This document shows, piece by piece, positions 46,416-46,763 of a DNA stretch of 54,711 nucleotides (position 1 is the first letter of the stretch; every line of letters starts with the position of its first letter). This DNA is from a virus, in IMG/VR virus record IMGVR_UViG_3300028888_000177, positions 1 through 54,711 of that record, one strand, 5' to 3'. The position numbers and the translations under genes are program-made. Under the pieces are notes generated by a model. That model worked only from the letters and a program-made list of their open reading frames with translations. It ran no database searches and had not been told where the DNA came from.

Positions 46416-46490
46416 TGGCAGGGGCGCTGAGAATCGAACTCAGACTTGTGGATTTAGAGTCCACGGCGCTAACCACTACACCACACCCCA
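46416..46490 (-). tRNA. amber suppressor tRNA (anticodon CTA), tRNA-Gln-like body
   Basis: Anticodon stem GTGGA/TCCAC with loop CTCTAAA; T-arm CTGAG-TTCGATT-CTCAG; 3' end CGCCCCT-G-CCA; 5' end UGGGGUG with a U1-U72 mispair and G73, resembling tRNA-Gln identity features (E. coli tRNA-Gln begins UGGGGUA). Confidence 0.7.
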
Positions 46491-46688
46491 GTATAAAACA
46501 AGACGCTTTACATCAATTGAAGGGGCAAATCAAAACAGCTCCGATTATATATGTAAATGTTTTGCTGTGTGCGTCTTTAGTATCCTCAACAAATTTTTTA
46601 AAAAACAAACTTCAAGACACTTTTTTAATATATTCGTAAATAAAAATGGCACGAATTATTAAATATTTTGCTGAATGTGTCTTATTTT

Positions 46689-46763
46689 TGGCACCGGCGG
46701 TTTGGAGTCGAACCAACACTTCCTGGGTTAGAGCCAGGTGAACTACCGTTACCCTACGCCGGC
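46689..46763 (-). tRNA. second amber suppressor tRNA (anticodon CTA)
   Basis: Acceptor GCCGGCG/CGCCGGT, G73, anticodon stem CCTGG/CCAGG with loop CTCTAAC, T-arm GTTGG-TTCGACT-CCAAC, encoded CCA. Confidence 0.75.

What the first reader, a model, noticed from the sequence alone, without database searches (positions are those of the whole stretch)
46416..46763. Two distinct amber-suppressor tRNAs (anticodon CUA) in one tRNA cluster, alongside cognate Gln tRNAs elsewhere
The tRNAs at 46416..46490 and 46689..46763 both fold with clean anticodon arms whose 7-nt loops read CUCUAAA and CUCUAAC (anticodon CUA), but their acceptor, D and T arms are unrelated. So two independently derived suppressors are present. 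The window also encodes tRNA-Gln(UUG) and an unusual tRNA-Gln(CUG) that is one substitution away from CUA. Carrying two suppressors with different bodies is uncommon; it could reflect different amino-acid identities, or redundancy or dosage.
Basis: seen in the sequence. Interest (0 to 1): 0.75.

Follow-up and report, generated by a model that had tools for sequence, protein, structure and literature searches.

The report
Two amber-suppressor tRNAs, recoded phage
A large uncultivated phage that reads the stop codon TAG as glutamine carries two different, separately conserved tRNAs for that job; this is real and tidy, but several suppressor tRNAs in one such phage have already been published.

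Summary
ARAGORN and Rfam both call tRNAs with a CUA anticodon in the right register at 46416-46490 and 46689-46763 (minus strand).

The window is part of a large phage genome, GC 36%, absent from GenBank phages. Many of its genes stay open only if TAG is read through. Codon-level comparison with relatives shows TAG stands for glutamine and nothing else. TAG occurs in 14 of 62 conserved-Gln columns. It occurs in 2 of 63 conserved-Trp columns, both likely ORF-boundary artefacts, and in 1% or less of the columns of every other amino acid.

The two suppressors belong to two separate lineages, about 57% identical. Both occur together in at least six related contigs and keep their cloverleaves through compensatory changes.
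- **SupB** is closest to the phage's own tRNA-Gln(CUG).
- **SupA** has a Trp/Gln(UUG)-like body with an invariant unpaired 1:72 position. Its ancestry is unresolved.

Most likely both are charged with Gln by the host enzyme and serve as redundant or differently tuned decoders of UAG. The published phage phAss-1 already has three CUA tRNAs with different bodies, one of them in the SupA lineage. This is a new member of a known kind, of moderate interest.

The parts
46416..46490 (-). SupA: 75-nt tRNA, anticodon CUA, loop CUCUAAA, encoded CCA. It has a U1.U72 mismatch, G2-C71, G3-C70, G4-C69, G5-C68, G10 and G73.
   Evidence: ARAGORN. Rfam tRNA 55.5 bits. In 10 orthologues, 12 pairs have compensatory changes and 1:72 is never paired.
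46689..46763 (-). SupB: 75-nt tRNA, anticodon CUA, loop CUCUAAC, encoded CCA. It has G1.U72, C2-G71, C3-G70 and G73, a D stem with G11.U24, G12.U23 and U13.G22, and one bulged A in the 3' strand of the T stem.
   Evidence: ARAGORN. Rfam tRNA 38.2 bits. In 9 orthologues, 100% of cells are paired and 6 pairs changed on both sides. The bulged A and the two G.U pairs are invariant.
46544..46578 (-). Conserved spacer unit AAAGACGCACACAGCAAAACATTTACATATATAAT, about 55-90 nt upstream of SupA. It looks like a promoter. A second copy, AAGACA-17-AATAAT, lies at 46683-46655.
   Evidence: The motif core is invariant in W, L165, L003, L163 and L185. Promoter function is inferred.
46400..46416 (-). Hairpin AGGAC-CATAGTA-GTCCT followed by TTTTT, directly after the CCA of SupA. 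It looks like a terminator.
   Evidence: Conserved in L165, L003, L163 and L185. Function is inferred.
46790..46797 (-). TGTATAAT (extended -10-like), 27 nt upstream of the 5' end of SupB.
   Evidence: Read from the sequence. A second promoter-like site lies at 46850-46822. Function is inferred.
53231..53305 (-). tRNA-Gln(CUG), closest relative of SupB: same acceptor stem GCCGG/CCGGU-G-CCA. Its T loop is non-canonical (GUCAGCA).
   Evidence: (42 bits).
53311..53385 (-). tRNA-Gln(UUG), acceptor AGGGGCG/CGCCCCU-G-CCA. This is the same acceptor type as SupA.
   Evidence: (61.4 bits).
1214..2992 (-). RecJ-like exonuclease gene with 9 in-frame TAG codons. It was used to decode TAG.
14842..16965 (-). 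Divergent second NAD-ligase paralogue with 11 in-frame TAG and no CAG.
51385..52623 (-). Radical-SAM gene with 7-8 in-frame TAG and no CAG.
47412..48254 (-). Thg1-like (3'-5' nucleotidyltransferase) gene immediately upstream of SupB. It is syntenic with the suppressors in L002, L003, L004, L165 and L168. A link to the suppressors is not shown.
   Evidence: Pfam PF04446, 91 bits. Synteny.

Best explanation
The window is part of a large phage genome that uses genetic code 15, in which TAG means glutamine, in a subset of its genes. SupA and SupB are its two amber-suppressor tRNAs.

Proposed mechanism:
- Both are transcribed from the phage DNA. SupA appears to be its own unit, with a conserved upstream promoter-like motif and a downstream hairpin plus T-run.
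- Both are matured with their encoded CCA.
- Both are charged with glutamine by the host's Gln-charging enzyme. Bacterial Gln identity depends chiefly on U35, G73 and a weak or open 1:72 pair, and both tRNAs have all three.
- Both then compete with release factor 1 at UAG, so that TAG-containing phage genes (RecJ-like, DnaB, second ligase, radical SAM, amidase and others) are read through.

The two tRNAs have separate origins. SupB is a G36A derivative of the phage tRNA-Gln(CUG) type. SupA has a Trp/Gln(UUG)-type body (NGGGG...CCCCU-G) whose first base is U, so that 1:72 is never paired. They are kept together either as redundant capacity or as differently tuned decoders. SupA has the A36-A37-A38 loop typical of tRNAs that read U-starting codons, whereas SupB keeps the Gln-type A37-C38.

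Shown: tRNA folds, the anticodon, conservation, covariation, and TAG = Gln. Inferred: charging by the host enzyme, the promoters and terminator, and any division of labour.
For: - **tRNA calls:**
- **In-frame TAG in long conserved genes:**. All 31 genes surveyed end in TAA (19) or TGA (12), with TAG making up 12% of Gln-type codons.
- **TAG = Gln, protein level:** in RecJ homologues Q is the majority residue at 6 of 9 TAG columns and is invariant (72/72) at position 171.
- **TAG = Gln, DNA level:** 77 of 80 relatives have CAA or CAG at that column. All 8 conserved-Gln columns in RecJ carry TAG in some relative.
- **TAG = Gln, all clusters:** over 32 orthologous clusters, TAG falls in 14/62 conserved-Q columns (76 codons). 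It falls in 2/63 W, 2/202 K, 1/138 N, 1/178 E and 1/182 Y columns, and in none for the 14 other amino acids. The two W cases are single N-terminal TAGs in distant loci.
- **TAG replaces CAG:** TAG-rich genes lack CAG, for example RecJ 9 TAG to 1 CAG, second ligase 11 to 0, radical SAM 7 to 0.
- **Both lineages conserved with compensatory changes:**
- **Co-occurrence:** the pair is found in L003, L163, L165, L185, L176 and L178.
- **Nearest isotypes with anticodon masked:** SupB is closest to Gln(CUG). SupA is closest to Gln(UUG) and Trp.
- **Identity rules:** from PMC9976931. E. coli tRNATrp(CUA) is charged by GlnRS (PMC2965240).
- **Published parallels:** phAss-1 has three Sup-CTA genes predicted as Gln (PMC10607447). 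TAG to Gln in gut phages was confirmed by proteomics (PMC9523058 abstract).
Against: - Aminoacylation was not and cannot be tested here.
- The host is unknown, so it is unknown whether it has GlnRS or uses GluRS plus the amidotransferase.
- SupB lacks the G2-C71 and G3-C70 elements of E. coli Gln identity, and both tRNAs lack G36 and U38. The phages' own tRNA-Gln(CUG) genes also have C2-G71 and C3-G70.
- SupB scores only 38 bits and does not fold into a cloverleaf by energy minimisation alone.
- Several relatives manage with SupA alone (L168, L004, L175, L179), so SupB is dispensable in some genomes.
- TAG also occurs at some variable or E/K-rich columns. That is expected for Gln but does not exclude occasional other readings.
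Confidence: 0.72

Rival explanations
1. The two suppressors carry different amino acids, for example SupA carries Trp because its body is Trp-like and SupB carries Gln. UAG would then be decoded ambiguously or in a context-dependent way.
For: SupA's T arm plus 3' acceptor end matches only tRNA-Trp genes among 185,579 species genomes. It has G2-C71 through G5-C68 and G73, which are bacterial Trp determinants. Its loop CUCUAAA is the Trp loop with C35U.
Against: TAG is absent from conserved Trp columns in this clade. The count is 2/63, and both are boundary artefacts in distant loci. C35, a major Trp determinant, is lost, and A1-U72 is destroyed in all 10 orthologues. In E. coli the same anticodon change converts tRNATrp to Gln acceptance (PMC2965240). 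The genome search was biased against tRNA-Gln because the pattern contained U72. On the unselected 5' part, Trp and Gln(UUG) are equally close, 59 vs 56%.
Confidence: 0.08
2. One of the two genes, most likely the lower-scoring and odd-looking SupB, is a decaying duplicate without function.
For: SupB scores 38.2 bits and has a bulged T stem and three G.U pairs in the D stem. No cloverleaf appears in the single-sequence MFE fold. Some relatives lack SupB. The SupA copy in L001 lacks CCA and has a D-loop insertion.
Against: Nine SupB orthologues keep 100% of stem cells paired, with 6 pairs changed on both sides. The odd features themselves are invariant, which indicates selection rather than decay. 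The anticodon loop is intact and CCA is encoded in all of them.
Confidence: 0.1
3. The suppressors act mainly against the host. They would cause read-through of host TAG stops to weaken the cell or its defences, as proposed for Zeta crAss-like phages that carry unused suppressors. Decoding phage genes would be secondary.
For: This hypothesis is published for phages with 'non-functioning' suppressors, and two suppressors were suggested to strengthen the effect (PMC12386605).
Against: Here the phage itself depends on read-through. There are 51 in-frame TAG codons in 16 of the 31 genes surveyed, including RecJ-like, DnaB and GyrA. An effect on the host may exist as well, but it is not needed to explain the genes.
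Confidence: 0.07
4. They are pyrrolysine tRNAs, as the ARAGORN label 'tRNA-Pyl' suggests.
For: Only the automatic label, which is given to any CUA anticodon.
Against: Both have ordinary elongator architecture: two bases between the acceptor and D stems, GG in the D loop, a 5-bp anticodon stem, a 4-nt variable loop and a GTTCGA T loop. By my own knowledge tRNAPyl lacks these features. No pyl genes were seen among the window's proteins. TAG aligns with Gln.
Confidence: 0.01

Closest known systems
tRNA-Sup-CTA genes of phage phAss-1 and the proposed Phassvirus group (OQ749652.1; PMC10607447)
   Same: This is a code-15 gut phage with TAG in many essential genes, a large tRNA set, no own synthetase found, and three CUA tRNAs with different bodies (88, 72 and 74 nt). 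Two of them lie next to a tRNA-Leu, as in this window. Its 72-nt suppressor (UGGGGAG...CUCCCC-C-G, 1:72 unpaired) is 75% identical to SupA and belongs to the same lineage.
   Different: The genomes are otherwise unrelated at the DNA level: only a 50-nt tRNA-Lys match. phAss-1 has no SupB-type tRNA. Its other suppressors are a long-variable-arm type, also seen here in relative L002, and a third body. The paper does not analyse the suppressors as separate lineages.
Amber-suppressor tRNAs of TAG-recoded crAss-like, Lak, Garnet, Amethyst, Agate and Topaz phages (Borges et al., bioRxiv 10.1101/2021.08.26.457843; Peters et al., PMC9523058)
   Same: A phage-encoded CUA tRNA with TAG read as Gln, a host presumed to use the standard code, and charging presumed to be by the host GlnRS.
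   Different: In the crAss-like and Agate phages mapped in that work, the replication genes are in standard code and the late genes are recoded. In this window the replication and repair genes (RecJ-like, DnaB, GyrA, second ligase) carry TAG, as reported for Lak phages. Two conserved suppressor lineages side by side are not discussed there.
E. coli supE (tRNA-Gln CUG to CUA) and su+7/supU (tRNA-Trp CCA to CUA)
   Same: SupB is to the phage tRNA-Gln(CUG) what supE is to tRNAGln2: a change at position 36. SupA has a Trp-type acceptor (GGGG/CCCCU-G) with U35, like su+7, which GlnRS charges with Gln (PMC2965240; PMC9976931).
   Different: The E. coli examples are laboratory mutants of host genes. 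Here both types are natural, phage-encoded, conserved and used together. SupA additionally has U at position 1, which abolishes the 1:72 pair. Whether SupA really descends from a tRNA-Trp is unresolved.

Membership tests
Phage amber-suppressor tRNA serving genetic code 15 | tRNA fold with anticodon CUA in the correct register | tested here: met
   Covariation.
Phage amber-suppressor tRNA serving genetic code 15 | In-frame TAG codons in conserved phage genes of the same genome | tested here: met
   51 in-frame TAG in 16 of 31 genes.
Phage amber-suppressor tRNA serving genetic code 15 | TAG positions correspond to glutamine in relatives | tested here: met
   14/62 conserved-Q columns, against 3% or less for every other residue.
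Phage amber-suppressor tRNA serving genetic code 15 | TAG is not used as a terminator | tested here: inconclusive
   All 31 genes end in TAA or TGA, but the ORFs were defined with TAG read through. A few TAGs lie close to the 3' ends and could be real stops.
Phage amber-suppressor tRNA serving genetic code 15 | The tRNA is charged with Gln and inserts it at UAG | not testable with these tools
   Needs charging assays or proteomics.
Bacterial tRNA-Gln identity set (PMC9976931 Table 1) | G73 discriminator, G10, U35, A37 | tested here: met
   Present in both SupA and SupB and in all orthologues.
Bacterial tRNA-Gln identity set (PMC9976931 Table 1) | U1-A72 (weak first pair) | tested here: not met
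   SupA has U1 but U72 (C72 in L179), and the pair is never formed. SupB has G1.U72 or A1-U72. The pair is weak or open in both, but it is not U1-A72. The phages' own tRNA-Gln genes also have U72.
Bacterial tRNA-Gln identity set (PMC9976931 Table 1) | G2-C71 and G3-C70 | tested here: inconclusive
   SupA: met in 9 of 10 orthologues, C-G in L003. SupB: not met; 2:71 is always C-G and 3:70 is C-G in 7 of 9.
Bacterial tRNA-Gln identity set (PMC9976931 Table 1) | G36 and U38 | tested here: not met
   A36 follows by definition from the CUA anticodon. Position 38 is A in SupA and C in SupB.
Bacterial tRNA-Trp identity set (PMC9976931 Table 1) | C34, C35, A36 | tested here: not met
   Position 35 is U in both.
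Bacterial tRNA-Trp identity set (PMC9976931 Table 1) | G73, A1-U72, G2-C71, G3-C70, G4-C69, G5-C68 | tested here: not met
   SupA has G73 and pairs 2-5 but U1 instead of A1 in all 10 orthologues. SupB has C2-G71 and C3-G70.
su+7-type suppressor (tRNA-Trp body with CUA anticodon) | The body descends from a tRNA-Trp | tested here: inconclusive
   Only tRNA-Trp genes match the 26-nt 3' part of SupA in bacterial genomes, but the pattern excluded A72 tRNA-Gln genes. On the unselected part, the identities are Trp 59%, Gln(UUG) 56% and phage Trp 55%.
tRNA-Pyl | Atypical architecture, from my own knowledge: one base between the acceptor and D stems, a small D loop without G18G19, a 6-bp anticodon stem and a 3-nt variable loop | tested here: not met
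   Both have canonical elongator architecture.

The most novel reading that the evidence does not exclude
The two suppressors are not merely redundant. SupA would be a naturally evolved identity-switched tRNA: a Trp-type body made into a Gln acceptor by C35U plus loss of the A1-U72 pair. The always-unpaired 5' base is conserved from this rumen clade to the human-gut phage phAss-1. SupA and SupB would then differ in efficiency or timing. They appear to have separate promoters. SupA has the A36-A37-A38 loop expected to receive the i6A37-type modification, and SupB does not. The phage could therefore stage the switch from standard code to code 15. The adjacent Thg1-like 3'-5' nucleotidyltransferase might act on the mismatched 5' end of SupA.
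Probability: 0.12. Interest if true: 0.6.

Novelty: new member of a known kind. Interest (0 to 1): 0.35.

Why it matters
It adds a clean, well-controlled case to the picture of how phages rewrite a stop codon. In this phage clade TAG means glutamine only, and the decoding rests on two tRNAs of separate origin that selection keeps side by side.

The practical use is for annotation. Genomes of this clade must be translated with code 15, and ARAGORN's 'tRNA-Pyl' label is wrong here.

The conserved oddities are concrete handles for anyone studying how host synthetases are made to accept suppressor tRNAs, or looking for natural amber suppressors as tools. They are an always-open 1:72 position in SupA, and a bulged T stem with a G.U-rich D stem in SupB.

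It does not change the current understanding of recoding.

Tried and rejected
- **Exact searches in IMG/VR** with the anticodon arms of SupA and SupB found nothing. Looser patterns and anchoring on the neighbouring Thg1 gene worked.
- **First attempt to decode TAG** from genes flanking the tRNA cluster gave too few positions: Q 4, K 4.
- **My error in the RecJ query:** I masked a genuine Gln codon at position 4 as X. This was found and then used as a positive control.
- **GenBank phages:** the 16.7-kb stretch 38000-54711 has no near relative there. SupB has no match. SupA has only body similarity to Bacillus-phage tRNA-His genes. I do not take that as identity evidence, because SupA has G73 and no G-1.
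- **SupB body in bacterial and archaeal genomes:** no match.
- **SupA as Trp-derived:** I first read this. I then found that the search pattern contained U72 and so excluded ordinary tRNA-Gln, and that the selected 26 nt inflated the identity. On the unselected part the ancestry is unresolved.
- **Thg1-like gene and G-1 of tRNA-His:** I tested whether the gene is explained by a need to add G-1 to phage tRNA-His. The tRNA-His genes of relatives encode G-1 themselves, so that is not a sufficient explanation. No link to the suppressors could be shown either.
- **SupA leader:** it has no significant structure, z = -1.0.
- **Host identification:** not achieved.
- **tRNA-Pyl and decaying-pseudogene readings:** both rejected, see the rival explanations.

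Full report
**1. Observation**

ARAGORN finds ten tRNA genes in the window, all on the minus strand, in two clusters.
- Cluster one, in minus-strand (transcription) order: CUA at 46689-46763, CUA at 46416-46490, Leu(UAA), Lys(CUU), Lys(UUU), Cys.
- Cluster two, in the same order: Gly, Pro, Gln(UUG), Gln(CUG), at 53231-53692.

Rfam's tRNA model independently calls all ten. It scores the two CUA tRNAs 55.5 and 38.2 bits against a threshold of 29. The alignments place CUA at positions 34-36 of seven-base loops reading CUCUAAA and CUCUAAC. All ten genes encode their CCA end. I call the tRNA at 46416-46490 SupA and the one at 46689-46763 SupB.

**2. What the window is**

The window has 36% G+C, and nearly all long reading frames are on the minus strand. 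It encodes a replication, repair and nucleotide-metabolism module typical of a large phage:
- RecJ-like exonuclease, primase, DnaB, two NAD-dependent ligase paralogues, gyrase A and B, uracil-DNA glycosylase, a ThyX-like protein;
- PIN-PhoH, a cell-wall amidase, a flotillin-like protein;
- several RNA-related proteins: a Thg1-like enzyme, an RNA-ligase-like protein, a weak RlaP match, an RNase T-like exonuclease and three phosphoesterases.

The 16.7-kb stretch searched (38000-54711) has no near relative among deposited phages. Relatives are abundant in IMG/VR and metagenome assemblies, on contigs of about 150-200 kb. The closest is JAEEGH010000401.1, at 197 kb and 86% identity in the Thg1-like protein.

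**3. TAG is a sense codon here, and it means glutamine**

Sixteen of the 31 genes surveyed stay open only if TAG is read through. Examples are the RecJ-like gene (9 TAG), the second ligase (11) and the radical-SAM gene (7-8). All 31 genes end in TAA or TGA.

For the RecJ-like protein, 72 full-length homologues show Gln as the majority residue at six of the nine TAG columns. Gln is invariant at one of them, 72 of 72. The protein database may itself translate TAG as Q, so I repeated the test on DNA. In 80 viral contigs, the column of the invariant IINNQ motif holds CAA or CAG in 77 and TAG in the window and two others. All eight conserved-Gln columns of that gene carry TAG in at least one relative.

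I then extended the test to 32 orthologous gene clusters from all fetched phage loci.

| Conserved residue | Columns with TAG / conserved columns |
|---|---|
| Gln | 14 / 62 (76 codons) |
| Trp | 2 / 63 |
| Lys | 2 / 202 |
| Asn | 1 / 138 |
| Glu | 1 / 178 |
| Tyr | 1 / 182 |
| 14 other amino acids | 0 |

The two Trp cases are single TAGs at the N-terminal edge of reading frames in distant loci that do not belong to the suppressor-bearing clade. They are most simply ORF-boundary artefacts.

Within the window, TAG-rich genes have almost no CAG, whereas the GC-richer TAG-free genes use CAG heavily. This fits TAG arising from CAG by C-to-T change under A+T pressure. The genome therefore uses code 15, as described for many gut phages (bioRxiv 10.1101/2021.08.26.457843; PMC9523058).

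**4. The two suppressors are two conserved lineages**

Anchoring on the Thg1-like gene next to SupB recovers relatives with the same gene order. L003, L165, L185 and L163 have SupB-type, SupA-type, Leu(UAA), Lys and Cys in the same order as the window. L176 and L178 have both types at separate places, with the SupB type directly after Trp-Gln(UUG)-Gln(CUG). L168, L004, L175 and L179 have the SupA type only.

SupB features:
- Its nine orthologues are 81-99% identical to it.
- They keep every stem position paired, with changes on both sides at six pairs.
- They keep three peculiarities unchanged: G11.U24, G12.U23, and a single bulged A in the 3' strand of the T stem, next to a pair that switches between U-A and C-G.

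SupA features:
- Its ten orthologues keep 93.5% of stem cells paired, with changes on both sides at twelve pairs.
- Position 1:72 is never paired: U.U in nine and U.C in one.

In both cases none of 500 column shuffles reaches the observed values, and sliding the partners destroys the signal. Both genes are therefore under selection as tRNAs, and neither is a recent copy of the other. They are about 57-64% identical.

**5. Whose bodies are they?**

With the anticodon masked, SupB's nearest non-suppressor tRNAs among 224 phage tRNAs are tRNA-Gln genes. Among groups, Gln(CUG) is closest. SupB shares the acceptor stem GCCGG/CCGGU-G-CCA with the window's own Gln(CUG). Its loop CU-CUA-AC is the common Gln(CUG) loop CU-CUG-AC with one change.

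SupA has the acceptor type NGGGG/CCCCU-G-CCA, which it shares with the window's Gln(UUG) and with bacterial tRNA-Trp. A search of 185,579 species genomes with its T arm and 3' end hit only tRNA-Trp genes. However, the pattern contained U72 and so could not match ordinary tRNA-Gln. When the selected region is left out, Trp (59%), phage Gln(UUG) (56%) and phage Trp (55%) are equally close. I therefore leave SupA's ancestry open between Trp and Gln(UUG). The SupB pattern has no match in those genomes.

**6. How it most likely works**

Published identity rules for bacteria place Gln identity in U35, G73, the first pair, 2-71, 3-70 and G10. They place Trp identity in C34-C35-A36, G73, A1-U72 and pairs 2-5 (PMC9976931). 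Changing the E. coli tRNA-Trp anticodon to CUA abolishes recognition by TrpRS and makes it a GlnRS substrate (PMC2965240 citing Yaniv et al. 1974).

Both SupA and SupB have U35, G73, G10, A37 and a weak or open first pair. SupA also has G2-C71 and G3-C70. SupB does not, but neither do the phages' own tRNA-Gln(CUG) genes. Together with the codon evidence that TAG means Gln only, the best-supported mechanism is that the host's Gln-charging enzyme loads both with glutamine and both read UAG in competition with release factor 1.

No synthetase or release-factor gene is present in the window. The rest of the genome was not available.

SupA is flanked by a conserved upstream motif with a TATAAT-like box and by a conserved hairpin plus T-run. 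SupB has its own TGTATAAT 27 nt upstream. Separate transcription is plausible but inferred.

One difference may matter. SupA has A36-A37-A38, the loop of tRNAs that read U-starting codons, while SupB keeps C38. From general knowledge of anticodon-loop modification, the two could differ in decoding efficiency. This is inference only.

**7. Comparison with what is known**

Multiple amber suppressors in one code-15 phage are already published. phAss-1 has three tRNA-Sup-CTA genes, and its two relatives have two each (PMC10607447). I read them from the GenBank record. They are 88, 72 and 74 nt long, with different bodies.
- The 72-nt one is 75% identical to SupA and also has an unpaired 1:72.
- The 88-nt one, with a long variable arm, is 74% identical to the 94-nt CUA tRNA of relative L002.

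So the SupA lineage and the habit of carrying several unlike suppressors both extend beyond this clade. I did not find either of two points stated in the papers I read. One is that two specific lineages are co-conserved with their own invariant peculiarities. The other is that one of them clusters with Gln(CUG) while the other has a Trp/Gln(UUG)-type body.

**8. Verdict**

The finding is real, and its core reading, two independently derived amber suppressors, is right. The suggestions that this is uncommon or reflects different amino acids are not supported. It is a new member of a known kind. Interest is moderate (0.35): a specialist would find the conserved open 1:72 pair and the bulged T stem worth a look, but no open question is changed.

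Noticed in passing
window 12882-14801 and 14842-16965 (minus strand): Two NAD-dependent DNA ligase paralogues sit in tandem. The first is ordinary: 0 TAG, 33% GC. The second is very divergent: 23% GC, 11 in-frame TAG, no CAG, and Pfam sees only a weak BRCT domain.
   Followed up: partly
window 38228-40675 and 41914-43455 (minus strand): A protein with major-vault-protein shoulder and repeat domains lies next to a DUF2828/DUF7788 protein. Both sit in a GC-rich block (48-52%) that uses only CAG for Gln (27/0 and 12/0). 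It looks like a recent acquisition, and vault-like proteins in a phage are unusual.
   Followed up: partly
window 47412-48254 (minus strand); loci L001-L080: A Thg1-like 3'-5' nucleotidyltransferase gene lies directly upstream of SupB. The gene is widespread in 150-430 kb phage contigs, most of which have no tRNAs nearby. The tRNA-His genes of relatives encode their own G-1, so its role is unclear. SupA's unpaired 5' base makes a link tempting, but it is untested.
   Followed up: partly
window 53231-53305; L003 6999-7074; L174 3304-3379: tRNA-Gln(CUG) has a non-canonical T loop, GUCAGCA or GUCGGCA instead of UUCGAAU. The loop is conserved between relatives, and the tRNA scores only 42 bits.
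   Followed up: no
L002 11272-11365; phAss-1 OQ749652.1 62445-62532; L177 1804-1891 and L178 1801-1888: There is a third suppressor lineage with a long variable arm: 94 nt in L002 and 88 nt in phAss-1, 74% identical. L177 and L178 also have an 88-nt 'tRNA-Gln(UUG)' with a long variable arm. Class II-like bodies with Gln or amber anticodons are odd.
   Followed up: partly
window 50680-51384, 51385-52623, 48340-50676 (minus strand): A radical-SAM enzyme lies next to a 231-aa protein with many CxxC repeats at both ends, followed by a 774-aa S-layer-homology protein. All three contain TAG. The first two look like a peptide-maturation pair. The SLH domains hint at a Firmicute host.
   Followed up: no
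window 46683-46655 and 46578-46544 (minus strand): A repeated spacer unit, AAGAC[AG]...CAGCAAA...TATAAT-like, lies between SupB and SupA. W, L003 and L163 have two copies, and L165 and L185 have one. It may be a phage promoter or the trace of a lost tRNA unit.
   Followed up: partly
window 45717-46037 (minus strand); L163 about 728 onward: A conserved small ORF of 106 aa, basic N-terminus MSRSYKHTPYCG..., sits inside the tRNA cluster between Leu(UAA) and Lys(CUU).
   Followed up: no
window 9014-9676 and 11227-12243 (minus strand): Two GIY-YIG-type genes that look like homing endonucleases, both containing TAG, flank the ThyX-like gene.
   Followed up: no
L001 6682-6755: The SupA-type gene in this relative lacks an encoded CCA and has an extra base in the D loop. 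It may be decaying or may need CCA addition.
   Followed up: no
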